Positions 439-18,217 of a stretch of DNA of 18,217 bases are shown piece by piece. The DNA lies in the UHGV virus genome UHGV-0816550; one strand, written 5' to 3'. Every line of letters begins with the position of its first letter. Within the stretch, counting starts at the first letter, position 1. The notes under the pieces are model-generated. The model was not told the DNA's origin. It saw only the letters and a program-made list of their open reading frames with translations, and did not search any database. The position numbers were made by a program, and so were the translations under genes. Source of the stretch: a virus.

Positions 439-447
439 GGAGATAAT

Positions 448-3400
448 ATGATCGTTTATAATAGCCAAGCACCTGATGCAGTGAATGATGTTGGGCAGTT
501 TGGTGCTAAGGAAGGCTCTATCGGAGCTTACAAGCAAGCAGCAGAATATGCAGCTGACTCCAAATATTGGGCACTGCTAGCGGAGTCTAAGTTTGGTACA
601 ATTGATGACTTGATCACTGAAGTAGAACGTCTGTATCAACAAGGTGTTTTAATGAAGCAAGATATCGAAGATCTTAAACAGGACTTTAAAGATCAAGATG
701 CTCGTTTGATGACACTTATTGCTCAGACTAACGCAGCAGTGTCGGATGCTAATAATGCCGTTGCTTTAATCAATCAGAAACTTATTGAGGTTCAGAAACA
801 GCTTGATGTTCTGTTGGGAATGTCTGTTGACGTAACTACACTTCCTCCGGGAACTCCGGCTACTGGCTCTTTTAATCCGAACACTGGTGTAATCTCTTTA
901 GGTATTCCAGAAGGTGATCCCGGAAAGGATGGTTCTGTTAAAGATTTGGATACAGCACCTACTGGTGTTCCAGAGCTAGGTGATTTAGGTTTCTATGTTG
1001 ACAAAGATGACAATACTGTCCACAAGACTACTCTAGAGAATATTGCTAACTTAATTCCATCTGTTCGTTCTGTGTCTGTTAACGGTGGAACACCTGCTGA
1101 TGGAGAAGTTAATCTGGTCCTAGACAAAACTACTGTAGGTCTTAATAACGTAGTTAACGTAGCCTCTTATAGTATCTCTCAAGTTGACGGTAAAGTGGAT
1201 GGGTATGTTAAAACCTACAGAACCAAAGCTGCTGCGGATGCTGATGTAGTTAACCGAAAGGTTGGCGAAAACATCCTAGTTTGGGAGGATTATAAATACG
1301 TCTTCTACACTGTAGCTGCCGATAAAACACTAACTCTTTCTAAAACAGAAAATAGGATTGTTACGGTAAACTCTCGAGTTCCGGATTCTACTGGTAATAT
1401 TGATATTACGATACCTACCGGTAACCCGTCTTTGTATTTGGGTGAGATGTTAATGTTCCCTTATGACCCAGCCAAACAGGTGTCATATCCGGGTGTTCTT
1501 CCAGCTGATGGTCGTCTGGTGTCTAAAGATAACGCTGCTGATTTAGGCCCATCTCTTGTCAGTGGTCAACTTCCTGTTGTTTCTGAAACTGCGTGGCAAG
1601 CTGGAGCTAAACAGTATTTCTCTTGGGGCAAGTTAGCTGATGGGGTTACTGATGCGGATTCAACAAACTTTATCAATATTCGACTTCCCGATTGGACAGG
1701 TGGTGAGGCAATTAGATCTCCAAGTAAAACAAGTGACACTCAGTATGATGGAAGACCTCTTTCTCAGGTTCCTTATGTTGTTGCTGTTAACGGTAAGATC
1801 CCTAATGAAGCAACAGGTAATGTTACAGTCACAGCATCAGATGTAGGTGCCCTTCCTACTACTGGTGGTAAGATGACAGGCCATCTAAATCTCAGCTCTG
1901 GGATTGTGTTAACAGGTACCGCGAGTTCTGGAACATCCATTAATATCGCAACTGTTGCAACTGATGGTTCCGTTCTTCTCGGTAGTGATACAGTTAAAGC
2001 TAAAGTCCTATCTTCTGATGTCCCTGTTTATGCAAGCGCTTCGGGAGAGAAGAAGTTTTACACTGAGGCTAACAAACCAACTCCTGCTGAAATAGGGGCT
2101 GCTGCTATCACCTCTGCTGGGGTTAACGGGGATATCACTAAGCTTGAAGGTTTGGTTGGCCCTACTCGACTGGGTGGAGATGCTGTAGGTGATCTAGATG
2201 CTGTTACCTTACGTCAGTTAAGAAACCAAGGGGGTGGCGGTGGTGGGGCTAGCTTGAACGGTGTCTCTAATTTCAATATTGGTGATTTCCGTTTAGTAGA
2301 CAGTCGTGCTCTTATTCACTCTAATGACGTAACTTCTGACGGTCAATTATTATCTCGTACGGCATACCCAGATCTGTGGGCTTATGCTCAAGCGTTGTCT
2401 CCTATCACAGATGCTGCTTGGCTGGCTGACCCCCAACAAAGAGGTAAATACTCTTTAGGTGATGGTTCTACTACATTCCGTGTCCCTGACCGAAATGGTG
2501 TCCAAAGCGGCTCTATCACAGGGTTGTTTGGTAGGGGTGACTCTGGTAATTCTTCTAACAGTGGTTCAGTTTCTGATGCTTCTCTGCCAAACATCACAGC
2601 TAGCTTCTCTTCAGACTTAAACGGAAAAGCTTGGTTTCCTTTCACTACAGCTGACGGGTCTATGCTTGTCTCAACATCCGGTAGTGGAACTTTTATGCCA
2701 ACTGCTGGATATGAAACTGGGACCCAAGGAAATATACTTAGGTTCGATGCATCTAGACAATCCTCAGTTTATGGTCGATATAGTAACACCCAGAACGTAA
2801 TACCTAAAAGTTTTACTGGCGTTTGGGTAATCAGGGCTACTGGTGGATTCACTGCTGCTAATACAGAGTGGTCTGTTATTAACTCCGATGCAACCAAACC
2901 TTCTACTGGGTTTACAGTGTCTGGTGGTTTAGTCCGCTCTGAGTATAAAATAGGGACCGACCTAACTTACTCAGCAACCTTGTCTGCTTATGGGCAAATT
3001 GATGGAGCCTCCGGAACATCTGGAGCTAAAATCTTAAACGGGTCTCAGGAGTGGAAATTCAACAATGCTGGAACATTAGTTCTTCCTAATGCGGTATCTC
3101 AGCTTGGTACAGAAAGACCTGATGGAGCTATCAATGTTGATGCATACCTAAGACCTAAAGATTTGGTAGCCAACTCACTGAACTCTGTCGGTGTTGCGGC
3201 TTACGAGCGAAACGGTATGAGGATGATTAACTTCAATCAAACCACTCCTGGATATGTTTCTTACTTCTCTGGGGATTGGTATGATGGCAGTTACACTCTT
3301 GGTGGCGTTCGTGGTACTGGTACAGACCTGATTCATGCTCAGATTGCGGTAAACAACGGTCAAGGTGTAGCAGCTGATTTTAAGTTCATGCCGGACGGAA

Positions 3401-3762
3401 CTGCTCAAGCAGGGAACTGGTCAAGCACTTCAGACGAAAGACTTAAAACTAACATCAAGCGTATTGAGAATCCTATTGAAAAACTTAAGGCTATCAAAGG
3501 TGTTACTTGGGAACGTCTTGATAAACTTCCTAAACCTAATGGTATTGGCTTCCTTGCGCAAGATGTGGAGAAGGTTTTCCCTGACGCTGTTAAGGCTCTC
3601 CAGTATTCAGACACTGAATTGAAAGATGGAACTATTGTGAAAGATGTTAAGTCTGTAGACACCTATGGGGTAGCTGCTGCACTGCATCACGAAGTCCTAT
3701 TAGTTTTGTTAGATAGAATAGAAGCTCTTGAGAAAGAAGTAAATGAATTAAGGGCACGGTAA
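448..3762 (+). CDS. Tail fibre / tailspike protein 1 (1104 aa) with tail-collar module and C-terminal intramolecular chaperone domain
   Basis: ATG 448 preceded by AAGGAG (437-442). Predicted coiled-coil N-terminus; poly-Gly hinge (QGGGGGGAS); collar-like motif AYPDLWAYAQAL...GDGSTTFRVPDRNG at about 2362-2500; C-terminal S-DERLKTNIKRIENPIEKLKAIKGVTWERLD...LHHEV typical of peptidase S74 self-cleaving chaperone domains. Confidence 0.9.
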   Translation: MIVYNSQAPDAVNDVGQFGAKEGSIGAYKQAAEYAADSKYWALLAESKFGTIDDLITEVERLYQQGVLMKQDIEDLKQDFKDQDARLMTLIAQTNAAVSDANNAVALINQKLIEVQKQLDVLLGMSVDVTTLPPGTPATGSFNPNTGVISLGIPEGDPGKDGSVKDLDTAPTGVPELGDLGFYVDKDDNTVHKTTLENIANLIPSVRSVSVNGGTPADGEVNLVLDKTTVGLNNVVNVASYSISQVDGKVDGYVKTYRTKAAADADVVNRKVGENILVWEDYKYVFYTVAADKTLTLSKTENRIVTVNSRVPDSTGNIDITIPTGNPSLYLGEMLMFPYDPAKQVSYPGVLPADGRLVSKDNAADLGPSLVSGQLPVVSETAWQAGAKQYFSWGKLADGVTDADSTNFINIRLPDWTGGEAIRSPSKTSDTQYDGRPLSQVPYVVAVNGKIPNEATGNVTVTASDVGALPTTGGKMTGHLNLSSGIVLTGTASSGTSINIATVATDGSVLLGSDTVKAKVLSSDVPVYASASGEKKFYTEANKPTPAEIGAAAITSAGVNGDITKLEGLVGPTRLGGDAVGDLDAVTLRQLRNQGGGGGGASLNGVSNFNIGDFRLVDSRALIHSNDVTSDGQLLSRTAYPDLWAYAQALSPITDAAWLADPQQRGKYSLGDGSTTFRVPDRNGVQSGSITGLFGRGDSGNSSNSGSVSDASLPNITASFSSDLNGKAWFPFTTADGSMLVSTSGSGTFMPTAGYETGTQGNILRFDASRQSSVYGRYSNTQNVIPKSFTGVWVIRATGGFTAANTEWSVINSDATKPSTGFTVSGGLVRSEYKIGTDLTYSATLSAYGQIDGASGTSGAKILNGSQEWKFNNAGTLVLPNAVSQLGTERPDGAINVDAYLRPKDLVANSLNSVGVAAYERNGMRMINFNQTTPGYVSYFSGDWYDGSYTLGGVRGTGTDLIHAQIAVNNGQGVAADFKFMPDGTAQAGNWSSTSDERLKTNIKRIENPIEKLKAIKGVTWERLDKLPKPNGIGFLAQDVEKVFPDAVKALQYSDTELKDGTIVKDVKSVDTYGVAAALHHEVLLVLLDRIEALEKEVNELRAR
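3430..3759 (+). other. Intramolecular chaperone (peptidase S74-like) domain of fibre 1, with predicted autocleavage near the Ser-Asp at 3430-3435
   Basis: Motif SDERLKTNI...GVTWERL...GIGFLAQDVEKVFPDAV...LHHEVLLVLLDRIEALEKEVNELR matches the conserved endosialidase/tailspike C-terminal chaperone signature ending in a coiled coil. Confidence 0.7.
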
Positions 3763-3772
3763 TATAAATAAT

Positions 3773-3791
3773 GCTCCCTTCGGGGAGCTTT
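3773..3791 (+). terminator. Stem-loop GCTCCC-TTCG-GGGAGC followed by TTT; candidate terminator or RNA processing/stability hairpin
   Basis: Perfect 6-bp GC-rich inverted repeat with a UUCG tetraloop 11 nt after the fibre 1 stop; only a short U-tract; the AAGGAG site of the next gene follows at 3792. Confidence 0.5.
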
Positions 3792-3803
3792 AAGGAGATT
3801 TAA

Positions 3804-5900
3804 ATGTCTAGAGATTTAATGCCCAAATCTGGCATACTTCAACCATATGTTGTTGTTTCCAGAGATGCAGCTGTTGTTGGCGTTTCCACTGTAGATGGTG
3901 TTGCTGGAGCTGTAAATTTAACTGATAAATACTTGCAGAAAACAGAAGCGGCTGATGTATATCAAACTAAAACAGAAGGTGCATCTAAAGATTATGTATT
4001 AGATTCAATTAAACCTATCATGGAAGGTGCTTTGTTCAAAGCAGACCCTTTTGTAGATAATAACATCCCTTTCCGTTCTGCTGGGGCTAATGGTGTAGAG
4101 TCTGTGGATATGATGAAAGTCACCACTGATAACTCAATTAAGATTGGTAGTTATGCTTCCTCAGTTCAAGGTGTAGAAATTCACTCTGCTGGTCGTCTTC
4201 AGGTTGTTGACCAGAATGACTCTGGGGTAGAAACTAAGTACCCTGTTTATTCTAAACGATACCGCCCTGAGATTGAAGATTTACCTTTCGCTGCAATCGG
4301 AACTTATGTTAAAGATTCAAAAGGTCGTACTGTTGGTGTTACCCGTACAGGTATTAACTCTGATATCAAACAGCTTACACAGAAGGTTACTTTCACTCAG
4401 CCAGTAACTGTTGCCGATGCAGTTGGTGACTATGATGCTGTCACACTAAGACAACTCCGTAATAGTAGTGGTGGTTCTGGTGGTCCTACAATGAGCGGTA
4501 TTTCTAACTTTGGTATTGGTGATTTCAGACTAGTAGACAGCCGTGCTTTTATCCAATCAAATGATGTTACCTCAGATGGTCAGCTGTTAAATCGTGCTGA
4601 TTACCCAGAGCTTTGGGCTTACGCACAACTATTGACCCCAATTAGTGATGCAGATTGGCTGGCTGACCCCCAACAAAGAGGTAAATACTCTTTAGGTGAT
4701 GGTTCTACTACTTTCCGCGTTCCTGATAGAAATGGCGTTCAAACCGGTTCTATCTCTGGTCTGTATGCTCGCGGTGACGGTGGTAACAGCTCCAACGACG
4801 GTACTGTTCAGCAGAACGCCGCGCCTGATATTACAGGCTCCGTTGGTGCGAACATATGGAGCGTATATGGAGATCCTACGGGGGCGATGTTTGCGGCTGA
4901 TCCAGCACTTAATATTCCGTTAGGCGCAGGAACCACACCAGCGCTTTCCGTCGGCTTTCGAGCGGGCCTATCAAACGCCGCTTATGGTCGCGACAACACG
5001 ACCGAAGTCCGCACCAACAGCTTCATAGGTGTCTGGGTTATTCGTGCTAATGGTGGCTTTACTGCTGCTAATACTTCTTGGTCTGTTATTAATGGCGACA
5101 GCGTTGCTCCGGGTACTGGAACAAAGATAGTAGGTGGTGAGATTCGTTCTGACTATAATATTGGAGACTCTATGCACATAAGATCCTCTATGCGTGCTGA
5201 TGGTAACTACGGTCAACGTGGAGGTGGTGTATGGAGAATTGAGGACTATCAAGGTAAAAGTGCAGAGATATCTTTCAACCTTGGTGGTGAGTTAGTGGTC
5301 CCAACATACACCAGAGGCGTGGGGTCGGGTTTCATTGCATCTTCTAAATTAGGGTCTGATGGTCAGTGGCCTACAACATCCCCGGCGTTTATTTGTGAGC
5401 TAACAGGCAGAGTGGGTAATCCCGGAACACCGGGTGCTGTTTTCTCCATGTCTATGGCGGAGAACGTGGGTGTTGATAGCTTTGGCATACTTAGATTCTC
5501 AGGAGCAGGGGTGAATGTGGACTGGCTGTTTAACCAGTTTGGTAGTGCCATAGCTCCTGCTAACTGGGTGAGTAATTCGGATATCCGAATTAAAAAGGAT
5601 ATTGCTAAGATAGAAGAACCTCTTGAGAAGATGAAGAAACTACATGGGTACACTTGGCGACGCTTAGACGGGGGCCAGTTTGGTATTGGGTTCATTGCTC
5701 AAGAAGTTCAGGATATCTATCCAGAGTTGGTCTATACAGGCCCAGACAGAACCCTCCCTGATGGAACAGTTGTCAAAGGTGTCCTATCTCCAGATTCTAC
5801 TGGTATTGCGATTGGTCTTCACCACGAAGCTATTCTGGCTTTGATGGAACAAATCGACACCCTTAAAGCAGAGATTGCTGAACTCAAATCTAACAAATGA
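3804..5900 (+). CDS. Tail fibre / tailspike protein 2 (698 aa), paralogue of fibre 1 with collar module and C-terminal intramolecular chaperone domain
   Basis: ATG 3804 with AAGGAG at 3792-3797. Collar-like motif ADYPELWAYAQLL...GDGSTTFRVPDRNG at about 4596-4737, roughly 80% aa-identical to fibre 1 over this module; C-terminal SDIRIKKDIAKIEEPLEKMKKLHGYTWRRLD...LHHEAILALMEQIDTLKAEIAELK. Confidence 0.9.
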   Translation: MSRDLMPKSGILQPYVVVSRDAAVVGVSTVDGVAGAVNLTDKYLQKTEAADVYQTKTEGASKDYVLDSIKPIMEGALFKADPFVDNNIPFRSAGANGVESVDMMKVTTDNSIKIGSYASSVQGVEIHSAGRLQVVDQNDSGVETKYPVYSKRYRPEIEDLPFAAIGTYVKDSKGRTVGVTRTGINSDIKQLTQKVTFTQPVTVADAVGDYDAVTLRQLRNSSGGSGGPTMSGISNFGIGDFRLVDSRAFIQSNDVTSDGQLLNRADYPELWAYAQLLTPISDADWLADPQQRGKYSLGDGSTTFRVPDRNGVQTGSISGLYARGDGGNSSNDGTVQQNAAPDITGSVGANIWSVYGDPTGAMFAADPALNIPLGAGTTPALSVGFRAGLSNAAYGRDNTTEVRTNSFIGVWVIRANGGFTAANTSWSVINGDSVAPGTGTKIVGGEIRSDYNIGDSMHIRSSMRADGNYGQRGGGVWRIEDYQGKSAEISFNLGGELVVPTYTRGVGSGFIASSKLGSDGQWPTTSPAFICELTGRVGNPGTPGAVFSMSMAENVGVDSFGILRFSGAGVNVDWLFNQFGSAIAPANWVSNSDIRIKKDIAKIEEPLEKMKKLHGYTWRRLDGGQFGIGFIAQEVQDIYPELVYTGPDRTLPDGTVVKGVLSPDSTGIAIGLHHEAILALMEQIDTLKAEIAELKSNK
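5577..5897 (+). other. Intramolecular chaperone (peptidase S74-like) domain of fibre 2
   Basis: NSDIRIKKDI...HGYTWRRL...GIGFIAQEVQDIYPELV...GLHHEAIL plus terminal coiled coil; homologous to the fibre 1 C-terminus but divergent (I estimate about 40% identity by eye). Confidence 0.7.
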
Positions 5901-5903
5901 GAT

Positions 5904-5922
5904 AAGCCCCTTCGGGGGCTTT
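5904..5922 (+). terminator. Stem-loop AAGCCCC-TTCG-GGGGCTT; candidate terminator or processing hairpin after fibre 2
   Basis: Perfect 7-bp stem with UUCG tetraloop 4 nt after the TGA stop; same architecture as the hairpin at 3773-3791; weak U-tract. Confidence 0.45.
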
Positions 5923-5992
5923 AGTAGTAAGTACCCTTAGTAAGTAATGAAACTAATATATCCCAAGAGGTTAATATATAGGAGACACTCAA

Positions 5993-6211
5993 ATGAAAAT
6001 GATGAAACAGGCTGCATATGGTTTAATCTGTTTAGTTGCAGGCGTTGTGGTATCAACCGCAGTTCCTGTAAGCGCAGTTCATCCATTAGTAACTGTCCCT
6101 GCTCCAGTAGAGAAGCTTAGCTCTCAATGCAAGCAGAGAACAATTCAAAATAACTTAGTTGTTATTTGCCCCGATGCTGAATCTAACGCTCTGAGAAAGA
6201 TACTACCTTAA
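5993..6211 (+). CDS. Small membrane protein (72 aa), putative holin or lysis accessory protein
   Basis: ATG 5993 with AGGAG at 5980-5984. One N-terminal hydrophobic segment (AAYGLICLVAGVVVSTAV), a proline-rich stretch and a charged C-terminal tail; sits immediately upstream of a lysozyme that has no signal or anchor sequence. Confidence 0.5.
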   Translation: MKMMKQAAYGLICLVAGVVVSTAVPVSAVHPLVTVPAPVEKLSSQCKQRTIQNNLVVICPDAESNALRKILP

Positions 6212-6240
6212 TTTAAAGGGACTACAAAAGGAGGTTAGGA

Positions 6241-6732
6241 ATGGATAACGCCGCATTGCCACCTGTACAACTAAACTTAAGCCCAGCTGGAATGGAATTC
6301 ATCATGAAGCATGAGGGTATGAGAACCAAGGCTTATAAAGATTCCGCAGGTATATGGACTATATGTGTAGGGGCTACGCGCGATATGAATGGTTATCCGG
6401 TTAGACAAGGATTAACGTATTCTATAGAGGATTGTCTAGCTCTGCTAGATAGAGACACACAAGACTCTGTTCGTGCTACTCAAAAGAACATAAAGGTTCC
6501 TTTACTAGTTCATGAGTTTGATGCACTCACTTCTTTCAACTTCAATGTTGGCAGTGGTGCTTTGAGCACATCTAAGTTAAGGAAGGTTATCAATGGAGAA
6601 GTTAAAGGGGATGTATATTCCGAATTTCTTCGTTGGGATAAAATAACGGTCAAGGGAGAGAAGCAGAGAAGTCAGGGTCTTCATAATAGAAGGGTTGCAG
6701 AAGCTGATCTTTACACCGAAGGTAAATATTAA
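6241..6732 (+). CDS. Endolysin, T4-type lysozyme (glycoside hydrolase family 24)
   Basis: ATG 6241 with AAAGGAGG at 6226-6233. HEG-MRTKAYKD-SAGIWTICVG reproduces the T4 lysozyme catalytic spacing Glu-(9)-Asp-(6)-Thr (T4 E11/D20/T26; here E25/D34/T40). No N-terminal hydrophobic segment, so it would be holin-dependent. Confidence 0.9.
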   Translation: MDNAALPPVQLNLSPAGMEFIMKHEGMRTKAYKDSAGIWTICVGATRDMNGYPVRQGLTYSIEDCLALLDRDTQDSVRATQKNIKVPLLVHEFDALTSFNFNVGSGALSTSKLRKVINGEVKGDVYSEFLRWDKITVKGEKQRSQGLHNRRVAEADLYTEGKY

Positions 6733-6744
6733 TGGAGGTGCCTT

Positions 6745-7548
6745 TTGGCTATCGAAACTAATGCGGTAGTTATTACCGACTTAAACCCGCTCTATCCTAG
6801 AGACAGGGATTACATCTACGAAGGGGCGGCTCAAATCCGCCTCATTAAACAAACGTTACAGAACACATTCCCCAATGTTACAGAACCGGTTGATATAGAT
6901 TCTGATACCTTTAAGATTATGTCAGAGAAGCTTAAGTTTACTGGTGATGCAATGGATGTTGGTGGTCTTATGATCAAGAATGTTACTCCGGGAACTGGTG
7001 ACAAGGATGTTGTTACTAAAGGCCAGATGGAAGCGTTCATGAAGAACTGGATGGAGAATAAGCTCTATCGAATTGGTTCTTACTATATCACTGAAGAAGA
7101 CATTAACCCAGGTGATTCAATCTCCTTAGGGTTTGGTTCTTGGGCTAAAGTGACTGGTGTCATTATGGGTACTGGTGTAGTAAACCCTGATGGAACTGTT
7201 CCTAATGCTCAGAGAGTTGAGTTCCAAGCAGGTGGTACTGGTGGTCGTGTCTTCAATACTATTCGAACTGAGAACGTACCTTTGATGACAGTTAATGGCT
7301 CCAGCTTCTCTCTATCCAGTAATACTCACAGTCACAATATGGTGTTTGGTCGTGGGGATGCTAGTGGTCATAACAGCTCACCAAACTGGTATAGTCCGGG
7401 TGGTGGTTATAGTCAGAGAACTGATAATGACACACATACTCATACAATCTCTGGTAGTGTAAGTCTTGGTCGTGATGATATCTCTCGTCAACCTATTAAC
7501 ACTTTGCCACCATTCAGAGCAGCTCACATTTGGAGACGTATTAGCTAA
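6745..7548 (+). CDS. Short tail fibre-like / receptor-binding tail protein (267 aa) with two HxH motifs
   Basis: TTG start at 6745 with GGAGG at 6734-6738; no in-frame ATG nearby. C-terminal region NTHSHNMVFGRGDASGHNSS...DTHTHTISG has HxH motifs and an FGRGD-x-G-x-NSS motif also present in both fibres, recalling the T4 gp12 type collar and metal-binding tip region. Confidence 0.7.
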   Translation: MAIETNAVVITDLNPLYPRDRDYIYEGAAQIRLIKQTLQNTFPNVTEPVDIDSDTFKIMSEKLKFTGDAMDVGGLMIKNVTPGTGDKDVVTKGQMEAFMKNWMENKLYRIGSYYITEEDINPGDSISLGFGSWAKVTGVIMGTGVVNPDGTVPNAQRVEFQAGGTGGRVFNTIRTENVPLMTVNGSSFSLSSNTHSHNMVFGRGDASGHNSSPNWYSPGGGYSQRTDNDTHTHTISGSVSLGRDDISRQPINTLPPFRAAHIWRRIS

Positions 7549-7557
7549 GGAGGAATT

Positions 7558-10500
7558 ATGGCGCTGTATCCAATAAAGTCACTAGGTGCTGTAGGCGTTA
7601 TCGCTGATCAGGCTCCGACAGACTTAGCTCCTAATGCTTTCACTAATGCTATAAATGCTCGATTTGTTGAGCAGAGAGTATTTAAGACGGGGGGCAATGC
7701 CCCTCTTTCTTATGTAGATGAAGATAAGGATTTAACCCCTCTGTCTTTCGTTTCTATGCCTTTCGATTATTATAGCGCAGGTAATAGCTTTCTTGTTGTA
7801 GGTACTAATAAGAAGTTATATAAACTGACAGATGAAAGCTTGACTGATATTAGCCGTAAGGTTGCTACAGTCACTAAGAAGGCTTCTGCCTCAATTAAGA
7901 TTTATCCAGTTGTTTCTCAGATCGTTCCTAAAGAATCAACTATCTCAATGAACTTCAATCAGACCAAGAATCTAGAGGTTTCTCTTCTCCCTGCTGATGC
8001 TAACAATACCGATCTTATTTGGGAGGTTAGTAACTCATCCTATGGAAGTATTACGGTAGACCCTAGTGACTCTAAACTTGCTACTCTAACATCTTTTGAG
8101 AAAGAGGGTAATCTTGTAGTAACTATCTCTACTGCCAATGAATCCGTAGTGGCTCAGATTGCTGTTAATATTATCGATGGCGATTCAGGCATCTTCTTGA
8201 GTCAAGACACTGTTACAATTCGTAAAGGAGGGACTACTACTCTCACGGCTGTTACTGGCAAGACTCCTGTAACTTGGTCCAGCAATAACGCTTCTATTGT
8301 ATCTGTAACCCCTAATGCCAACTCTTTAACTGCTGTCATTACAGCGAATGGAGAAGGTAATGTAACAATCACTGCTGATAACGGGACTAAGACTGCTTCT
8401 TGTGAGATTGTTTCTATCCCTCAGATTGATAGTATCTCTTTAAGCCAGTCAGATGTTACTGTGAGTAGAGGTTCTCAGTATATTTTAACTGCCACCCTTT
8501 CTCCTGCTAACGCCCCTAATCAAAACATTACTTGGACCTCTTCTAACCCAAATATTGCAACAGTATCAGGGACTAGCACACAAGGGACGATCAACGCTCT
8601 GCTTGCTGGTTTTACTGAGATTACAGCTACCACTGAAGAAGGTAACAGAGTTGCTGTCTGTACTGTACGTGTGGATTTAGCTGGAAGGACAATGAGAACA
8701 AGTGCTATGGCATTTGCCGCTCCTGTGTCAGAGTCAGTAGAAACTCAAGAGGAAGAAGTAGTAACTCCTCCTGAAAGTGAAGAGACGGTTTATTTTGCTG
8801 AGCCTACATCCGGTATTGATACGTCAGGGATGTATGAAGGTAACAACTTCTACGACTACTCTAACGTGAATGACATTGAAGGTTTTGCAAGAGCTTCTTT
8901 ACTGGCAACCCCTTTGTCGTCTGTAACCTTAGATATTGTCAGCGCCTCCCTTGATGTTGGTGAAGAGATTGTCATTACAGCCACAGCTTCTCCAGAAGGT
9001 GAGTACTCTTATCAGTGGTCTGTTGATAAAACTGGTTATGTTTCTACAACTTCAGTTACTGGTAAATCTATCAAACTGGTTGCTCTTCGTAAAGGAGAGA
9101 TTAACGTAACATGTACTGTCAGCCAGATGACTCAGAAAGATTATGATGCTTTTGATGACTACCCTTGGTATCACGCTGTTATCTCTAACTGTGCAGTTGC
9201 TACAACTCACTATGAAACTCCTCAGGTAAAAGAATTCGAATCAGAATACTTTGTAGACCTCCCGGGGTGGGGTGAGCAAACAGTTGTTGATAATGATGGA
9301 AACCCTTCAGTCAAGAAGTTTAACTGGAAATGTGAGAGAGTGAGATCTTTTAACAACCGTCTTTTTGCTCTGAATATGAGAGAGGCTAATGCTTCTGGTG
9401 TTACCACTAACTATCCGCTTCGTCTTCGTTGGTCTAACTTTGCCAATGAGAACAAGGCTCCTACACTGTGGGATGACTTTGCCTATGATCGAGTTGTGTC
9501 TTCGGACTTAGCTTCTAACATCGTAGGGCAGACTCAGGCTCTAGAGAATGGGTATGCTGGTTACATCGACTTAGCAGATTCTAATGGTAGCTTGATTGAT
9601 ATCCTACCTCTTAAAGACTACTTGTTTGTTTATACAGAGTTTGAAACGTATATTGGTTCTCCGACTAATAACACATACCAACCTCTGATGTTCAAGAAGC
9701 TCTTTAACGACTCTGGTATCCTTGCTCCCGAGTGTGTGGTTGAAGTAGAAGGCAGTCACTTCGTAGTTACTCAGAACGATGTAATCTTACACAATGGCGC
9801 AACCAAGAAGTCAATTGCATCTAACCGTGTCAAGAACATGCTGATTAACGAGGTGTGTCTGGTTAATCCTCTAGCAACTCGAGTACACTTGCATCAGGAT
9901 AAGAAAGAAGTTTGGGTTCTGTATGTAGGTCCGGGAGAACCAAAAGAAAGCTTCGCTTGCACCAAAGCTGCTGTATGGAATTATGAGTTTGATACCTGGT
10001 CTTTCCGTACTATCCCATATGCTCAGTGTATTGGTCTGGTTGATCCTCCTGTTTTAGAAAGAGGTCCAATCTGGTCTGACTTCCAAGAAATCACTTGGGA
10101 TGATCCGTCTATTAAAGAACTCGTTTGGAGAAAGGATGCAACAAACTTTAGACAGAGGGTTACGATAGTAGGTTCGTTCTTGAGGGGATTCTATCAGGTG
10201 GATGTAGGTGCTCTTGATTATTTCTATGACAGGCTAAACGATGTTGTTATAGAGAAGCCTCTGGAAATGAGGTTGGAGAGGACTGGTATAGATTTTGATA
10301 ATGTGACGAATGAGTGGAATCAGAAGCATATTAATAGATTCCGACCTCAGACAACTGGCTCAGGTACTTACATATTTGAAGCTGGTGGCAGTCAATTCTC
10401 AAATGAATATGGACACCCACATACATCTAAGACTTATACAATCGGTGTTGACAGGCATGTCTCGGTGAGACTGAACCATCCATACCTTTTCTATAATGTT

Positions 10501-10575
10501 ATAGATAATGATGTTAACAGTAATGCTGCTATCAATGGTTTGACGATAGAGTTTGCTGTTGGCGGGCGGAGATAA
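7558..10575 (+). CDS. Large virion structural protein (1005 aa) with four internal Ig-like (Big_2-type) domains
   Basis: ATG 7558 with AAGGAGG at 7547-7553. Four roughly 80-aa repeats between about 7903 and 9120 with the Big_2 pattern (for example TISMNFNQTKNLEVSLLPADANNTDLIWEVSNSSYGSITVD; VTIRKGGTTTLTAVTGKTPVTWSSNNASIVSV; VTVSRGSQYILTATLSPANAPNQNITWTSSNPNIATV). Flanking N- and C-terminal regions not recognised. Confidence 0.8.
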   Translation: MALYPIKSLGAVGVIADQAPTDLAPNAFTNAINARFVEQRVFKTGGNAPLSYVDEDKDLTPLSFVSMPFDYYSAGNSFLVVGTNKKLYKLTDESLTDISRKVATVTKKASASIKIYPVVSQIVPKESTISMNFNQTKNLEVSLLPADANNTDLIWEVSNSSYGSITVDPSDSKLATLTSFEKEGNLVVTISTANESVVAQIAVNIIDGDSGIFLSQDTVTIRKGGTTTLTAVTGKTPVTWSSNNASIVSVTPNANSLTAVITANGEGNVTITADNGTKTASCEIVSIPQIDSISLSQSDVTVSRGSQYILTATLSPANAPNQNITWTSSNPNIATVSGTSTQGTINALLAGFTEITATTEEGNRVAVCTVRVDLAGRTMRTSAMAFAAPVSESVETQEEEVVTPPESEETVYFAEPTSGIDTSGMYEGNNFYDYSNVNDIEGFARASLLATPLSSVTLDIVSASLDVGEEIVITATASPEGEYSYQWSVDKTGYVSTTSVTGKSIKLVALRKGEINVTCTVSQMTQKDYDAFDDYPWYHAVISNCAVATTHYETPQVKEFESEYFVDLPGWGEQTVVDNDGNPSVKKFNWKCERVRSFNNRLFALNMREANASGVTTNYPLRLRWSNFANENKAPTLWDDFAYDRVVSSDLASNIVGQTQALENGYAGYIDLADSNGSLIDILPLKDYLFVYTEFETYIGSPTNNTYQPLMFKKLFNDSGILAPECVVEVEGSHFVVTQNDVILHNGATKKSIASNRVKNMLINEVCLVNPLATRVHLHQDKKEVWVLYVGPGEPKESFACTKAAVWNYEFDTWSFRTIPYAQCIGLVDPPVLERGPIWSDFQEITWDDPSIKELVWRKDATNFRQRVTIVGSFLRGFYQVDVGALDYFYDRLNDVVIEKPLEMRLERTGIDFDNVTNEWNQKHINRFRPQTTGSGTYIFEAGGSQFSNEYGHPHTSKTYTIGVDRHVSVRLNHPYLFYNVIDNDVNSNAAINGLTIEFAVGGRR

Positions 10576-10579
10576 CAAC

Positions 10580-10608
10580 AAGGGGCTTCGTGCCCCTTTT
10601 ATTGTTTT
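10580..10608 (+). terminator. Rho-independent terminator-like hairpin AAGGGGC-TTCGT-GCCCCTT followed by a U-rich tract
   Basis: 7-bp GC-rich stem at 10580-10586 / 10592-10598, then TTATTGTTTT; lies 5 nt after the TAA stop at 10573-10575 and before the next gene's GGAGGA site. Confidence 0.6.
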
Positions 10609-10618
10609 GGAGGAACTT

Positions 10619-11587: not shown

Positions 11588-11588
11588 T

Positions 11589-12620: not shown

Positions 12621-12632
12621 CAAGGAGATATT

Positions 12633-13415
12633 ATGGCAATTAAAATGGGTATTGAAGAACTAGACCCAATGGTTCAACAGGCTTCAAAGAAGTATGGGAT
12701 TCCTGCTGCTTTGATTCATGCTGTAATCCAAAGAGAGTCTAGTGGTCGTCCTACGGTAGCCTCTGGAACTGGTCCTGTAGGTTTAATGCAGATCAGTAAA
12801 GGGTTGGCTAAAGACTACGGTTACAAACTAGAAGACAGACTTGACCCAGCAAAGAATATTGATATGGGTGCTCGTTATATTAGAGATAACTTAAAGGCTT
12901 TTAATGGTGATGTTAAGAAAGCAATGGTTGGTTATTCAGAAGGTATAGGTGGAGCTAAGCAAATGTTTGCCGGTAAAAAGGGATTTACACCTCAAGCCCT
13001 TGACTCAATGAACAACAAACACTTTCTTCCTTTCTATGATGATGCAGCTTCTCAGATTGCTAACCCTATTGGAGCTTTGCAAGCTGTTCAACCAGTCAAT
13101 CAGTTTAGTCCGGATACTCTTGATAGGGAGAAGGCTGCTCAAGCCCCAACTCAGGCAGAAATTACTGCTTCTAAGACTGGTGCTTTAGGTGGCAATCCAG
13201 TAGAGTTTTACTCTGATGAAGTGCAGGAAGGAGAAAACCAGAAGCCTCAACAGAACTTTGGTAATGCAGTATTAGGGGTAGCTGCTATGCTTGCCGGTAA
13301 ACCTCCTACTTCTCAAACAGTTCAGAGGGCAAGTGCACCACATGCAGCAGGTTCTCAGTACAGTCCACAAACACAAGCAGTGCTCAGACGTTTAGCTAGC
13401 ATTGGTGTAAAGTAA
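12633..13415 (+). CDS. Virion-associated lytic transglycosylase (SLT-domain) protein, 260 aa
   Basis: ATG 12633 with AAGGAG at 12623-12627. N-terminal signature AVIQRESSGRPTVASGTGPVGLMQIS, with the candidate catalytic Glu35 at codon 12735-12737; placed beside putative ejection proteins, as with peptidoglycan-cutting internal virion proteins. Confidence 0.8.
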   Translation: MAIKMGIEELDPMVQQASKKYGIPAALIHAVIQRESSGRPTVASGTGPVGLMQISKGLAKDYGYKLEDRLDPAKNIDMGARYIRDNLKAFNGDVKKAMVGYSEGIGGAKQMFAGKKGFTPQALDSMNNKHFLPFYDDAASQIANPIGALQAVQPVNQFSPDTLDREKAAQAPTQAEITASKTGALGGNPVEFYSDEVQEGENQKPQQNFGNAVLGVAAMLAGKPPTSQTVQRASAPHAAGSQYSPQTQAVLRRLASIGVK

Positions 13416-14487: not shown

Positions 14488-14499
14488 AGGAGATTTGAT

Positions 14500-15482: not shown

Positions 15483-16274
15483 ATGCAACAGACAACTTAC
15501 GCTCAGGTCAGAAGTCGTGACCCGAGAAATACTTTCTATGGTGTTAATCCGGGAGCGGCTTCGGCCTCTCCTTATATGGCTAGACCAACTCAGACAGCAG
15601 ATATTTCTATGTATCAACGTCCTGCTATACCTGCTGGGCTTTCCTCTCTTGTAGGTCAAACTTCAGTAGATTATCAGAATATGTTGAATCCTGTTCAGAG
15701 TAATGGTCTTCCTTCTGATATCCCAAATGATGTACAACCTCAAGCACAACAGGCTGTAACTCTTCCTGAGTTTGAGAATCAAGAAACCATGCAAGCTGCT
15801 GGACTTTCTCCTTCTTCTATTCCTCCAGAATCAGAACCTCTTCCGGTAACACCTCCTACTAAACCGTTAGAAGCTGGTCCTATGGAGTTTACTCCTTCTC
15901 AGGTGGAACAGGCACAAGGTGTGATTAATACTCTTGCTCAAGGACAAGACGCTGGTGATGGAATGACTGCTGCTACTCGTGCTAAAGATCAGGAACGTGT
16001 TAACAACGATATCTTGCAAGTTGCTAAAGCTAAAAATCCTTCAGAAGCTTGGAATAAACTACAGAAAGAACCTTTCTATCAGAACTCCAGTTTCTATACA
16101 GGTTTAATGGGTGTAGGTCTTTCTATCATGTCAGGTAAGTCTCCTATTGAAGCTTTCCAGATTGGTCAGGGAATGGCTAATCAAGATGAGACTAAGAAGC
16201 AACTGGAAGCTAACCGTGATGCTCTGATTGAACAAGGCTTCTCCCAAGACTCGATCGCAGCTGCTATTGCTTAA
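15483..16274 (+). CDS. Hypothetical virion/ejection-associated protein (263 aa) with Pro-rich linker and C-terminal hydrophobic segment
   Basis: ATG 15483 with AGGAG at 15473-15477. Pro/Ser-rich linker (SPSSIPPESEPLPVTPPTKPLEAGP) and hydrophobic FYTGLMGVGLSIMSG near the C-terminus; no family motif recognised. Confidence 0.65.
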   Translation: MQQTTYAQVRSRDPRNTFYGVNPGAASASPYMARPTQTADISMYQRPAIPAGLSSLVGQTSVDYQNMLNPVQSNGLPSDIPNDVQPQAQQAVTLPEFENQETMQAAGLSPSSIPPESEPLPVTPPTKPLEAGPMEFTPSQVEQAQGVINTLAQGQDAGDGMTAATRAKDQERVNNDILQVAKAKNPSEAWNKLQKEPFYQNSSFYTGLMGVGLSIMSGKSPIEAFQIGQGMANQDETKKQLEANRDALIEQGFSQDSIAAAIA

Positions 16275-17967
16275 CACGTTGAGAGCGAGCACGCTGAGAA
16301 GAGAAGCGATTCAGAGCATACTTAGCAGCACCGAGAGTGTTCATTACCAGACTAGGTGAAGAAGCCTCACGGAATCCATCATCAGTCAGGGAAGTCCAAC
16401 CACGATCTTGGTTACTCATAAACTTAGCCGTATTGTTCAGAGTGTAAGCATCTTGGATAGGATTAAAACCTTCAGGCATGCCTTTCAGTTTCTTCAACCC
16501 ACCGATAGCTTTCTTCATCTCTGGAGAAACGTTATCAGCCATCTTCTGTAGTTCAGCAGCTTTCTCTACGAAGTTGTTAAAGTCTTCACCATCACGAGCT
16601 TTGAATCGATTTGCTTCGTTATAGAAAGTCTTGTACGCATCAATGAAATCACGGTCAGCTTGTGTGCGATTCTTAATATCAATCGGACTGCCAGTAAAGT
16701 CACCAGAAGCTCGGAGAGAAACTAACTCACGATCAAGATTATCCAGAACATCTGTAAGAGCTTTAGTGTTATCCTTGGTGTAGTCAGCCATTGCATCTTT
16801 CATAGCGACAGCTTGCTTCTGGTTGTGCTCATTATCAGCGAAGGCTTTACCACGAGTCTTAGCCGGAGAAGCTAAAGGGTTAAGGCCCGGAATGTTGGAA
16901 TGTTCTTTCTGAACAGAAGCAGCTTTCTCAGCACGAGCTTGGTCAGTATTAAGAATACGCTGAGCAGCAGGAGAATCTACAGCAACAGCATCTGTGATAC
17001 GGAATCCGTTCTCGTCGAGAAGGTTCAGAGCAGAAGCAGCGTTAGCAGTTTCAGCTTTAGAGTAAGCCTCTTTCAGCTCATCAATATTCTTAGCACCACG
17101 AATCAGTTCATCATCAGCAGCAATATCAGTCTTCGCATATTCTGGAGTGTTCTTGAAGACAGCAGAATCCGGACGGCTAATCAAACCATGAACTCCACCA
17201 ACTGCACCACCAAATGCAGCACCCATAGCCCCTTCTTCAATAACCCCTTCCAATGTCTTAGCTAAATCATTGTCATCACCATACTTGTTCTGAACTTCAG
17301 CAGCACCAACAAGAGCACCACCTTTAGCACCAGCCACTGCGTTACTAGCAACGTTCTGACCAATACGACCAAGTGTGGACTCAGCTGTACCAACAGCACC
17401 CGGAAGGATTCTCTGAGCTGCATAGTTAGCACCACCAACTAAGGCTGCATCTAGAACAGACTTATCTTCTCCCTCTTCAGGGGTTTGGTCTGCATACGCA
17501 CGACCGGTCTCACGACCTGCGATGATAGCAGCGGCAGCTAATGGGTTAGCAACTGTCAGACCAATGTCGGCAACCACCCCAGCATACTGACCAGCAGACT
17601 TACCAATCCCATCCTCAATCTTATCCATACGTTCTTTCAAGAGGTTTTGAGCGTTCTCTTGCATACGCTTCCCGTAACCAGTTTGTGCTCCAGTTAGATC
17701 TTCACCAATCTCAACTAAGCCCCCAATACCTCTAGCAAGATTAGCAGAGATGTTAGCACTGCCGGACTGAAGAGCATTTGACACACCTTGAGCAAACTCA
17801 CCTATAGCACCACGTTCTTCTTGTTGTGGTTGTGCTACTGGCTGTTCCTCAGGAATAGAGCCACCTGCTGCCTTATATTGTTCTCTCATTCGAGCTTGTT
17901 GCTCCGGAGAGGCATTCAGATACGCAGGAGCTTTGGAAGCTTCTTCCCACGGTTTAATGTTAGCCAT
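16264..17967 (-). CDS. Hypothetical Gly/Ala-rich protein (567 aa), function unknown
   Basis: Minus-strand ATG at 17965-17967 preceded by AAGGAG; product begins MANIKPWEEAS. The ORF-track start at 18012 has no ribosome-binding site. Stop TAG at 16264-16266 overlaps the 3' end of the + strand gene ending at 16274. Confidence 0.75.
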   Translation of the reverse strand: MANIKPWEEASKAPAYLNASPEQQARMREQYKAAGGSIPEEQPVAQPQQEERGAIGEFAQGVSNALQSGSANISANLARGIGGLVEIGEDLTGAQTGYGKRMQENAQNLLKERMDKIEDGIGKSAGQYAGVVADIGLTVANPLAAAAIIAGRETGRAYADQTPEEGEDKSVLDAALVGGANYAAQRILPGAVGTAESTLGRIGQNVASNAVAGAKGGALVGAAEVQNKYGDDNDLAKTLEGVIEEGAMGAAFGGAVGGVHGLISRPDSAVFKNTPEYAKTDIAADDELIRGAKNIDELKEAYSKAETANAASALNLLDENGFRITDAVAVDSPAAQRILNTDQARAEKAASVQKEHSNIPGLNPLASPAKTRGKAFADNEHNQKQAVAMKDAMADYTKDNTKALTDVLDNLDRELVSLRASGDFTGSPIDIKNRTQADRDFIDAYKTFYNEANRFKARDGEDFNNFVEKAAELQKMADNVSPEMKKAIGGLKKLKGMPEGFNPIQDAYTLNNTAKFMSNQDRGWTSLTDDGFREASSPSLVMNTLGAAKYALNRFSSQRARSQRVKQ

Positions 17968-18035
17968 AACGTCTCCTTTTATAAATAAAAATGTCCTACC
18001 CCCTATATACATTATAGAAGGCAGGACTTAGGTCT

Positions 18036-18217
18036 TATTGAGTGAACCAGCTCGTATCTTCAACAGCTGATAGAGCACCATTAAGCTTAGGATTGGTTGC
18101 TGCACCACCAACCGCTTCTTCTGCTTGTTCAGAGAAAACACCTAGAGGGTCATAGAAACCACCAGAAGGGATTGCACGGTTAACCAATGCAGTAGCCCTC
18201 TTCTTGTCCATACCAGA
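18036..18217 (-). CDS. Small minus-strand ORF, possibly the C-terminus of a gene that starts beyond the window end
   Basis: Frame open from the window edge to TAA (complement of 18036-18038); internal ATG at 18209-18211 would give a 57-aa product MDKKRATALVNRAIPSGGFYDPLGVF...; codon usage like neighbours. Start not determinable. Confidence 0.35.

What the first reader, a model, noticed from the sequence alone, without database searches (positions are those of the whole stretch)
5993..6732. Lysis cassette embedded between tail fibre genes
A 72-aa single-pass membrane protein is followed by a signal-less T4-type lysozyme, placed between fibre 2 and the short-fibre-like gene on the same strand. 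No separate spanin genes are evident. The small protein, with a proline-rich periplasmic stretch and three Cys, is not a textbook holin and could be a holin, a pinholin-like protein or a unimolecular spanin.
Basis: partly seen in the sequence, partly recalled or inferred. Interest (0 to 1): 0.5.

Follow-up and report, generated by a model that had tools for sequence, protein, structure and literature searches.

The report
Kuravirus holin–endolysin pair among tail genes
This is the already-annotated two-gene lysis cassette of phiEco32-like (Kuravirus) coliphages: a small membrane protein presumed to be the holin, followed by a soluble T4-type lysozyme, sitting between the long and short tail fibre genes; the layout is ordinary for this group, but nobody has tested whether the small protein is a holin.

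Summary
Two same-strand ORFs lie between the distal long-tail-fibre gene (3804..5900) and the short-tail-fibre gene (6745..7548). One encodes a 72-aa protein with one N-terminal hydrophobic helix (5993..6211). The other encodes a 163-aa PF00959 lysozyme with no signal or SAR domain (6241..6732).

The window is a Kuravirus (phiEco32/SU10-like). The pair equals phiEco32 gp16/gp17, annotated "putative holin / lysis protein" in the phiEco32 GenBank record and described in several papers, so the layout is already known.

- **Spanins:** they are absent from the window. In 99 related genomes an overlapped i-/o-spanin pair lies about 20 kb away.
- **Rejected readings:** u-spanin, pinholin and SAR-endolysin each fail a defining feature.
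- **The small protein:** it belongs to an orphan family with only about 25 sequence clusters. Every member examined sits directly upstream of the lysozyme. It is under purifying selection in three parts: a helix with a conserved small-residue face, a relaxed Pro-rich linker, and a near-invariant C-terminal β-hairpin flanked by two Cys.

The best reading is an N-in/C-out single-helix holin unrelated to T4 gpt, at about 0.55–0.6. A cleaved or SAR-type periplasmic lysis regulator is not excluded. No functional test was found. Interest is low to moderate.

The parts
3804..5900 (+). Upstream flank: distal long tail fibre gene (698 aa, C-terminal Peptidase_S74 chaperone); SU10 gp13 equivalent
   Evidence: Pfam and PHROG hits; SU10 structure paper PMC9509320
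5904..5921 (+). GC-rich hairpin (AAGCCCC-TTCG-GGGGCTT) just after the fibre stop codon. Its T-tract is weak here (TTTAG). A hairpin is kept at this position in divergent relatives, and one relative has a proper T-run.
   Evidence: L007 sequence
5944..5951 (+). GTAATGAA motif, invariant in four divergent genomes. Its core AATGAA matches 5 of 6 positions of the gp36 sigma-factor promoter core AATGTA. This is a possible weak internal late promoter (inferred, not shown).
   Evidence: Alignment A3; consensus from PMC12276001 and PMC4281155
5980..5984 (+). Shine-Dalgarno AGGAG, 8 nt upstream of the small gene's ATG
   Evidence: Sequence
5993..6211 (+). Small gene (72 aa), equal to phiEco32 gp16 / SU10 CDS14, annotated 'putative holin' (phrog_11161)
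6011..6076 (+). Codons 7-28: the single hydrophobic helix (AAYGLICLVAGVVVSTAVPVSA). Q6, Y9/G10, C13, G17, S21 and A28 are conserved on one helical face. It ends in a conserved PVxA motif that also looks like a signal peptidase I site.
6077..6109 (+). Codons 29-39: variable Pro-rich linker under relaxed selection (pN about equal to pS; indels in relatives)
6110..6208 (+). Codons 40-72: near-invariant C-terminal domain (EKLSSQCKQRTIQNNLVVICPD...). A β-hairpin is predicted at 47-51/54-58, flanked by Cys46 and Cys59 (probable disulfide, predicted periplasmic).
6230..6234 (+). Shine-Dalgarno GGAGG, 6 nt upstream of the lysozyme ATG
   Evidence: Sequence
6241..6732 (+). Endolysin (163 aa), GH24 T4/P22-type lysozyme with catalytic E25, D34, T40 (codons 6313-6315, 6340-6342, 6358-6360). 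No transmembrane or SAR domain. Equals phiEco32 gp17 / SU10 CDS15.
6745..7548 (+). Downstream flank: short tail fibre gene (267 aa, Gp10_C); SU10 gp16 equivalent

Best explanation
The two genes are the holin-endolysin module of a Kuravirus. They are carried inside the late structural operon between the distal long-tail-fibre gene and the short-tail-fibre gene.

**Proposed mechanism**
- The 163-aa GH24 lysozyme accumulates, folded and active, in the cytoplasm because it has no export signal.
- The 72-aa protein inserts in the inner membrane with its 6-residue N-terminus inside (K2, K5) and one helix across the bilayer.
- Its 44-residue C-terminal part lies in the periplasm: a flexible Pro-rich linker and a small β-hairpin clamped by a Cys46-Cys59 disulfide.
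- The helices pack through the conserved small-residue face (G10, C13, G17, S21).
- At a critical concentration they form holes that let the lysozyme reach the murein.
- The outer membrane is then disrupted by the overlapped i-/o-spanin pair, which these phages encode about 20 kb away in the middle-gene region.

**What is shown**
- Gene identity, conservation and synteny.
- The lack of any export signal on the lysozyme.
- The presence of spanins elsewhere in related genomes.
- The absence of both products from the virion proteome.

**What is inferred**
- The topology and the disulfide.
- Helix packing, and hole formation itself.
For: - **Family and annotation:** 99 phiEco32-like records carry the region at over 90% coverage. 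Many annotate holin plus endolysin. The literature describes the pair among the morphogenesis genes.
- **Lysozyme:** it matches PF00959 (E 4e-32) with the catalytic triad, and has no hydrophobic N-terminus. It therefore needs a membrane-permeabilising partner.
- **Best partner candidate:** the small protein is the only predicted membrane protein next to the lysozyme. None of the other small membrane proteins of phiEco32 hits a holin family.
- **Tight linkage:** the most divergent homologues (58%, 53% and 40% identity) all lie immediately upstream of the same lysozyme. This holds even where the upstream fibre genes are different.
- **Selection:** there is purifying selection on both the helix and the C-terminal domain, with a relaxed linker.
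- **Helix conservation:** the helix is as conserved as the C-terminal domain at 40% identity. Its conservation is helically periodic (permutation p = 0.03). That is expected of a retained, packing transmembrane helix rather than a discarded signal peptide.
- **Structure prediction:** AlphaFold2 gives a helix at 2-23 plus a hairpin at 47-58 flanked by the two Cys (low confidence).
- **Not virion proteins:** SU10 proteomics detected CDS11-13, 16-18 and 20-24 but neither CDS14 nor CDS15.
- **Spanins:** they are present elsewhere.
- **Precedent:** single-helix N-in/C-out holins exist, namely T4 gpt and phiKZ gp142 (PMC12894885).
Against: - No functional test of this protein was found in the searchable literature. 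Every 'holin' label traces back to position plus one hydrophobic segment.
- It matches no Pfam, NCBIfam or PDB family.
- The hydrophobic segment ends in a conserved PVxA motif that fits a signal peptidase I site. Its Gly/Ala/Ser/Thr content (about 0.37-0.47) resembles SAR domains and signal peptides. A crude hydrophobicity scale could not separate these cases.
- Its polar C-terminal domain is predicted periplasmic, unlike the cytoplasmic charged tail of most holins.
- The most distant homologue has no N-terminal positive charge, so its topology is uncertain.
- phiEco32 encodes other small membrane proteins that could be the real holin: gp66 (59 aa, 2 transmembrane domains) and gp102 (81 aa, 2 transmembrane domains).
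Confidence: 0.58

Rival explanations
1. The small protein is not the holin. It is an exported lysis accessory: either cleaved after VSA28 by signal peptidase I to give a 44-aa disulfide-bonded periplasmic peptide, or a SAR-type membrane-releasable protein like the T4 RI antiholin. It would tune lysis timing or lysozyme activity. The true holin would be one of the other small membrane proteins encoded elsewhere.
For: - The n-h-c layout (MKMMKQ / hydrophobic core / STAVPVSA) has P25, V26 and A28 invariant in Kuraviruses. A28 plus a V or T at -3 is kept in the distant homologues.
- The strongest conservation lies in the predicted periplasmic domain, with two invariant Cys.
- Other 2-transmembrane-domain small proteins exist in phiEco32.
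Against: - The hydrophobic segment is conserved as strongly as the mature part, and with helical periodicity. That is atypical of cleaved signal peptides.
- The distance from the last N-terminal charge to the putative cleavage site is 23 residues. That is longer than the typical 15-20 of E. coli signal peptides (own knowledge).
- None of the alternative membrane proteins hits a holin family, and all lie in the early or middle regions.
- A two-gene cassette kept together across fibre-gene swaps is most simply a holin plus an endolysin.
Confidence: 0.27
2. The small protein is a spanin: unimolecular, or an i-spanin-like component that disrupts the outer membrane.
For: There is a weak hit to phrog_812 'Rz-like spanin' (E 0.005). 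The periplasmic segment is Pro-rich and has Cys residues, as in Rz1-type proteins. No spanin is visible in the window.
Against: - There is no lipobox. GLIC at residues 10-13 is not one, and only 12 residues precede Cys13. There is no C-terminal transmembrane domain.
- The periplasmic part is only 44 aa and has no coiled coil.
- A bona fide overlapped i-spanin (phrog_1152, E 2e-37) and an o-spanin (lipobox MSAC) exist elsewhere in the same genomes. Both are catalogued by Kongari et al. 2018.
Confidence: 0.03
3. The small protein is a pinholin that merely depolarises the membrane, working with a SAR endolysin.
For: It is small and has a Gly-rich helix. One GenBank record (MN03) labels the lysozyme 'SAR-endolysin'.
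Against: Characterised pinholins have two transmembrane domains; this protein has one. The lysozyme has no hydrophobic N-terminal segment at all (best KD19 0.82) and no upstream start. Depolarisation alone could therefore not release it.
Confidence: 0.03
4. The lysozyme is a virion-associated cell-wall-penetrating enzyme. The small protein is a periplasmic immunity or superinfection-exclusion factor against it, like T4 Spackle against gp5.
For: The genes lie among tail genes. T4 Spackle is a small exported disulfide-containing inhibitor of a GH24 lysozyme (own knowledge).
Against: - Neither product was detected in SU10 particles although all neighbouring gene products were. Neither appears in the SU10 cryo-EM virion model.
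- The virion already carries an SLT transglycosylase among the ejection proteins (12633..13415).
- Expression inside the late operon does not suit an exclusion function.
Confidence: 0.04

Closest known systems
phiEco32 gp16 ('putative holin') / gp17 ('lysis protein'); SU10 CDS14/15; YF01 gp12/13
   Same: These are the same genes. The small protein differs from phiEco32 gp16 at 2 residues. The lysozyme is 100% identical to that of phage FS2B. Gene order is identical: fibre, fibre, small gene, lysozyme, short fibre, nozzle.
   Different: Nothing of substance. The window's upstream fibre 3' end differs from phiEco32, since most matches start at window position ~5900.
T4 gpt / T5 Hol (class IIIa holins) and phiKZ gp142 (class IIIb)
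   Same: The predicted gross topology is the same: one transmembrane domain, N-in/C-out. As in gpt, the conserved soluble part is periplasmic and probably carries a disulfide (PMC12894885; the gpt disulfide is from own knowledge).
   Different: No sequence relationship was found, with no Pfam hit. It is 72 aa against 218 aa, with only 6 cytoplasmic residues and a 44-aa periplasmic part. No RI/RIII-type antiholin is known for it. Function is untested.
T4 RI antiholin and the P1 Lyz SAR domain
   Same: It has an N-terminal, weakly hydrophobic, small-residue-rich helix that looks like a cleavable signal. It has a small periplasmic Cys-containing domain. Cys13 lies inside the helix and two Cys lie outside, recalling the Cys13/Cys44/Cys51 switch of P1 Lyz (own knowledge).
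   Different: There is no homology and no enzymatic domain. No partner holin with a periplasmic domain is known. Release from the membrane has not been tested.
Lambda Rz/Rz1 and T1 gp11 spanins
   Same: It is a small envelope protein with Pro and Cys in the periplasmic part, and it has a weak phrog_812 hit.
   Different: It has no lipobox, no C-terminal transmembrane domain and no coiled coil. The genome family has its own Rz/Rz1-type pair.
GH24 endolysins: P22 gp19 (2anv), R21 (3hdf/3hde), RrrD (4zpu), 8app, 7m5i
   Same: The lysozyme shares the PF00959 fold family and the E-x8-D-x5-T catalytic triad.
   Different: Unlike R21 it has no SAR domain. Its nearest phage relatives outside Kuravirus are Felix O1-like lysins at about 41% identity.

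Membership tests
Holin (functional class, criteria of Wang, Smith & Young 2000) | At least one transmembrane domain in a small protein | tested here: met
   One hydrophobic helix at residues ~7-28 (KD19 2.37) in 72 aa; AlphaFold2 helix at 2-23
Holin (functional class, criteria of Wang, Smith & Young 2000) | Gene adjacent to the endolysin gene and expressed late | tested here: met
   It lies 29 nt upstream of the lysozyme, and this adjacency is conserved in all homologues examined. Late-operon position comes from the literature. Timing was not measured here.
Holin (functional class, criteria of Wang, Smith & Young 2000) | Hydrophilic, highly charged C-terminal (usually cytoplasmic) tail | tested here: inconclusive
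   The C-terminal 44 aa are polar (5 K/R, 3 D/E). They are predicted periplasmic and contain two invariant Cys.
Holin (functional class, criteria of Wang, Smith & Young 2000) | Timed lethality, premature triggering by energy poisons, and release of a soluble endolysin (complementation of lambda S) | not testable with these tools
   This needs expression experiments. None was found in the literature searches.
T4 gpt holin family (class IIIa) | Sequence homology to gpt | tested here: not met
   No Pfam family at E <= 0.01, no NCBIfam family at E <= 1, and no PDB hit for the profile
T4 gpt holin family (class IIIa) | Single transmembrane domain, N-in/C-out, soluble domain in the periplasm | tested here: inconclusive
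   This is predicted from K2/K5 at the N-terminus and a Cys pair at the C-terminus. The most distant homologue lacks N-terminal charge. There is no experimental topology.
Pinholin (S21 type) | Two transmembrane domains, the first a SAR domain | tested here: not met
   Only one hydrophobic segment
Pinholin (S21 type) | Partner is a SAR endolysin | tested here: not met
   The lysozyme N-terminus is not hydrophobic (KD19 max 0.82) and has no upstream start
Unimolecular spanin (T1 gp11 type) | N-terminal lipoprotein signal with a lipobox Cys | tested here: not met
   No [LVI][ASTVI][GAS]C after a signal. Position -1 to Cys13 is I, V, L or A, and only 12 residues precede it.
Unimolecular spanin (T1 gp11 type) | C-terminal transmembrane domain | tested here: not met
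   The C-terminal 44 residues are polar
Two-component spanin (i-spanin) | N-terminal transmembrane domain, a long coiled-coil periplasmic domain, and a cognate o-spanin lipoprotein gene embedded, overlapped or adjacent | tested here: not met
   The periplasmic part is 44 aa with a β-hairpin prediction. There is no lipobox ORF in the window. The real pair is elsewhere in phiEco32.
GH24 phage lysozyme (PF00959), for the 163-aa protein | Profile match above the gathering score, and the Glu-8aa-Asp-5aa-Thr catalytic triad | tested here: met
   111.5 bits against a cut-off of 22.3. E25, D34 and T40 are read from the sequence. PDB relatives at E 9e-28.
SAR endolysin | N-terminal weakly hydrophobic transmembrane (SAR) domain | tested here: not met
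   the 'SAR-endolysin' label in record MT129653 is not supported
Sec/SPase I-cleaved secreted protein, for the 72-aa protein | n-h-c signal with small residues at -1 and -3, and actual cleavage | tested here: inconclusive
   The V26-x-A28 motif is conserved. The h+c length is 23, and the helix is conserved like a functional transmembrane domain. No trained signal-peptide predictor was available.

The most novel reading that the evidence does not exclude
The 72-aa protein founds a new, minimal holin family with class III topology, unrelated to T4 gpt. It would have 6 cytoplasmic residues, one helix with a small-residue zipper, and a 44-aa periplasmic disulfide-clamped hairpin. Its triggering would be gated by a thiol-disulfide switch between the invariant membrane-embedded Cys13 and the periplasmic Cys46-Cys59 pair. 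That would be analogous to the Cys13 switch of the P1 SAR endolysin, but acting on a holin or antiholin.
Probability: 0.1. Interest if true: 0.6.

Novelty: already known. Interest (0 to 1): 0.22.

Why it matters
As it stands, this only confirms a standard annotation. Kuraviruses keep their holin-endolysin pair inside the tail-gene block and their spanins elsewhere. The useful residue is that the 'holin' label, copied across about 100 genomes of therapeutically used coliphages, rests on position alone. If the small protein is confirmed, it would be a very small single-helix N-in/C-out holin. According to a 2026 paper, that topology class was until recently represented only by T4/T5 gpt homologues and now also by phiKZ gp142 (PMC12894885). 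With only 72 residues, it would be a tractable model for how one helix makes micron-scale holes.

Tried and rejected
- **Hydrophobicity comparison:** The ranges overlap completely, so the comparison does not discriminate.
- **AlphaFold2 on 23 sequences:** mean pLDDT was 57. I used it only for secondary structure and ran no fold search, because a low-confidence model gives meaningless matches.
- **Profile search of 1.84 billion representatives:** only two further true relatives appeared. The remaining hits were repeats in long proteins or a frameshift-like chimera (P0028).
- **PDB profile search and Pfam/NCBIfam:** nothing for the small protein.
- **Felix O1-like phages:** I looked upstream of their nearest non-Kuravirus lysozymes for a similar small gene and found none.
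- **Sigma-70 promoter scan:** no promoter-like site between the fibre stop codon and the small gene; the single site reported (6890-6917) lies inside the short-tail-fibre gene. The scan reports the hairpin only as a minus-strand terminator.
- **Full gp36 motif TAATGTATA:** at up to 2 mismatches it is not enriched in the window (61 matches against 72 expected).
- **Lambda-like dual start (Met1-Lys2-Met3-Met4):** rejected as a family feature because M3 and M4 are not conserved.
- **Original phiEco32 papers (PMC2587145, PMC3275717):** neither is held. I could not read the original rationale for 'holin' or the mapped transcripts.
Full report
**1. What is in the sequence**

- 5993..6211 encodes 72 aa: MKMMKQAAYGLICLVAGVVVSTAVPVSAVHPLVTVPAPVEKLSSQCKQRTIQNNLVVICPDAESNALRKILP.
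- 6241..6732 encodes 163 aa.

Each has a good Shine-Dalgarno sequence: AGGAG at 5980-5984 and GGAGG at 6230-6234.

The 163-aa protein is a GH24 phage lysozyme.
- It matches PF00959 at E 4e-32 and 111.5 bits and solved lysozymes such as 8app, 7m5i, P22 2anv and R21 3hde.
- It carries the E25-x8-D34-x5-T40 triad.
- Its most hydrophobic 19-residue window scores only 0.82 on the Kyte-Doolittle scale, and there is no in-frame start further upstream.
- It is therefore a soluble, signal-less endolysin. The 'SAR-endolysin' label in one GenBank record is wrong.

The 72-aa protein has one hydrophobic segment at residues ~7-28 (KD19 2.37). It has four prolines in residues 25-38 and three cysteines at 13, 46 and 59.

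The flanking genes are a 698-aa fibre ending in a Peptidase_S74 chaperone (3804..5900) and a 267-aa Gp10_C protein (6745..7548).

**2. Where the window comes from**

The window is the late structural block of a Kuravirus (phiEco32-like, Gordonclarkvirinae).
- 99 phage records carry the 5800-6900 region at over 80% coverage, most at 92-98% identity. Window positions 1-16275 are collinear with these genomes.
- In phiEco32 the two genes are gp16 ('holin') and gp17 ('endolysin').
- In SU10 they are CDS14/15. They sit between the distal long tail fibre (gp13) and the short tail fibre (gp16), followed by the nozzle protein (gp17).

The arrangement is described in print.
[quoted passage not shown] - YF01 gp12/gp13 are described as a holin and an endolysin.

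SU10 particle proteomics detected the products of CDS11-13, 16-18 and 20-24 but not CDS14 or CDS15. The pair is therefore non-structural even though it lies among virion genes.

**3. Spanins**

The window has no ORF with a lipobox and no homologue of the phiEco32 spanins.

The genome family does have spanins.
- phiEco32 gp39 is an i-spanin of 116 aa with an N-terminal transmembrane domain (phrog_1152, E 2e-37).
- The reading frame of gp38, extended upstream to position 35533, gives an 86-aa protein beginning MRKLNQFFIMSALVMSMSAC. This is a lipoprotein signal with an MSAC lipobox, and the gene overlaps gp39.
- Kongari et al. 2018 list phiEco32, NJ01, ECBP2 and KBNP1711 among phages with overlapped two-component spanins.
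- The locus is present at full length in 99 records, the same number that carry the cassette.

Nothing therefore forces the small protein to act on the outer membrane.

**4. The small protein as a family**

It has no Pfam, NCBIfam or PDB relative. Its only strong library hit is phrog_11161 (E 6e-49), a PHROG family of 72 profile positions labelled 'holin'. A weak hit to a spanin PHROG (E 0.005) spans nearly the whole protein (residues 3-70) and is too weak to weigh.

The family is small.
- A word-indexed search of 5.8 billion proteins gave 23 clusters, all 69-72 aa apart from one 54-aa fragment (P0022), and all at least 58% identical.
- An exhaustive profile search of 1.84 billion representatives added only two real relatives, at 53% and 40% identity.

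In every context examined the gene sits immediately upstream of the same lysozyme. This includes contigs whose upstream fibre genes belong to other families (Phage_tail_C_2, Gp53-like_C). In the most distant case it follows the fibre gene by 9 nt. The pairing with the lysozyme is thus the conserved unit.

**5. Architecture and selection**

The alignments show three parts.
- **Residues 1-28:** a short basic N-terminus (K2, K5) and a hydrophobic helix. Q6, Y9, G10, C13, G17, A23 and A28 are invariant down to 40% identity, and S21 is nearly so.
- **Residues 29-39:** a variable, Pro-rich linker with indels.
- **Residues 40-72:** this part is nearly invariant, and CKQRTIQNNLVVICPD is identical in all 23 close homologues.

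Codon analysis confirms a real gene.
- dN/dS is 0.07 against phiEco32.
- Against distant homologues the synonymous sites are saturated (pS 0.69-0.78) while pN is 0.22-0.44.
- In the linker pN is about equal to pS.

Conservation within residues 6-28 is periodic at 90-100 degrees per residue (permutation p = 0.03). This places Q6, Y9/G10, C13, G17, S21 and A28 on one helical face.

AlphaFold2 (mean pLDDT 57, so secondary structure only) gives a helix at 2-23 and a β-hairpin at 47-51/54-58. Cys46 and Cys59 lie at its open end. A cross-strand disulfide, and hence a periplasmic location, is the natural inference. It agrees with the positive-inside rule for K2 and K5.

**6. What it most likely does**

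A soluble endolysin needs a holin.
- This is the only membrane protein encoded beside the lysozyme. It is co-inherited with the lysozyme and lies in the late operon.
- No other small membrane protein of phiEco32 matches a holin family.
- The helix is conserved as strongly as the soluble domain and on one face. That is what a retained, self-packing transmembrane helix looks like, and not what a discarded signal peptide looks like.

I therefore favour (about 0.58) a single-helix, N-in/C-out holin with a small disulfide-stabilised periplasmic domain. This is the gross topology of class III holins. PMC12894885 states that, apart from phiKZ gp142, this class was known only from gpt homologues in T4- and T5-like phages. 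Membership of the gpt family is not met, because there is no homology.

Steps shown:
- identity, synteny and selection;
- a lysozyme with no export signal;
- spanins present elsewhere;
- absence of both products from virions.

Steps inferred:
- topology and the disulfide;
- helix packing and hole formation.

**7. What keeps the question open**

- The helix ends in a conserved PVxA motif that fits the -3/-1 rule of signal peptidase I.
- It is rich in small residues, like SAR domains such as that of the T4 RI antiholin.
- The best-conserved part is periplasmic.
- A crude hydrophobicity comparison could not separate signal peptides, SAR domains and holin helices.

A cleaved or membrane-releasable periplasmic lysis regulator remains a live rival (about 0.27). 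The true holin would then be among gp66-, gp102- or gp92-like proteins.

I found no expression, complementation or knockout data for this protein. The two original phiEco32 papers were not available.

The remaining alternatives are poorly supported.
- u-spanin, i-spanin and pinholin each fail a defining feature (see the membership table).
- The virion-lysozyme-plus-immunity idea conflicts with the proteomics.

**8. Regulation (minor, inferred)**

The 92-nt spacer between the fibre gene and the small gene starts with a GC-rich hairpin (5904-5921). Divergent relatives also have a hairpin there, and one of them has a proper T-run.

The spacer also contains an invariant GTAATGAA (5944-5951). Its core matches 5 of 6 positions of AATGTA, the element recognised by the phage sigma factor gp36.

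The published late promoters of SU10 and phiEco32 do not include one here. This is therefore only a hint of a weak internal promoter. The most distant relative has no spacer at all, so read-through from the fibre genes is sufficient.

**9. Verdict**

- The cassette reading is right.
- 'Holin' is plausible but unproven.
- Pinholin and u-spanin are rejected.
- The missing spanins are simply outside the window.

The feature is already known and annotated, so interest is low (0.22). The one point worth an experiment is whether this 72-aa orphan really is a minimal single-helix holin.

Noticed in passing
window 16267..18217 (breakpoint ~16,270): This stretch matches Kuravirus references on the opposite strand (for example EcK-vB 24019..25969, minus), while window 1..16275 matches the plus strand (8014..23343). 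Relative to the references, a segment of at least ~2 kb after the ejection-protein genes is inverted (about 2.6 kb if the inverted block starts directly at the breakpoint), or the contig is chimeric. The 582-aa ORF at 16264..18012 (-) has no Pfam hit.
   Followed up: partly
window 18006..18014 (-): This is the only exact copy in the window of the gp36 late-promoter motif TAATGTATA. It lies on the minus strand at the start of the inverted 582-aa ORF. It may correspond to the phiEco32 late promoter P26.
   Followed up: no
window 5904..5951: A conserved hairpin is followed by an invariant GTAATGAA in four divergent genomes. This could be a terminator/attenuator plus a weak gp36-type promoter just ahead of the lysis cassette.
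   Followed up: partly
L001 (phiEco32) 35273..35533 (-): RefSeq annotates gp38 as a 57-aa 'hypothetical protein' starting at 35446. Extending the frame to 35533 gives an 86-aa lipoprotein (lipobox MSAC) overlapping the i-spanin gene gp39. That is the o-spanin, so the annotated start is too far downstream.
   Followed up: yes
L001 35273..35768, and the window lysozyme 6241..6732: The Kuravirus spanin locus gives partial blastn matches in a further ~200 records, many named Salmonella or Felixounavirus (176 records in the 80-90% identity band). Kongari et al. place the phiEco32 i-spanin in the same family as Felix O1. The nearest non-Kuravirus relatives of the lysozyme are also Felix O1-like lysins (~41% aa). 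Lysis genes seem to have been exchanged between these unrelated phage groups.
   Followed up: partly
window 5993..6004: The small gene starts Met-Lys-Met-Met, which resembles the lambda S107/S105 dual-start motif. The second and third Met are not conserved in homologues (MKTLKQ, MKNAKC, MIIKQ), so this is probably not a regulated dual start.
   Followed up: yes
L002 (phiEco32) 5697..5876 (-) = record 45697..45876; and L002 25159..25404 (-): phiEco32 gp66 (59 aa, two transmembrane domains) and gp102 (81 aa, two transmembrane domains) are uncharacterised small membrane proteins in the middle and early regions. They are the main alternative holin candidates if gp16 is not the holin.
   Followed up: partly
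protein P0028 (metagenomic, 76 aa): It shares its first ~24 residues with the small protein family (the profile match covers residues 1-33) and then continues as a second hydrophobic stretch. It looks like a frameshifted or chimeric gene call.
   Followed up: no
GenBank MT129653.1 (phage MN03): The lysozyme is annotated 'SAR-endolysin', but the protein has no hydrophobic N-terminal segment. The label is not supported.
   Followed up: yes
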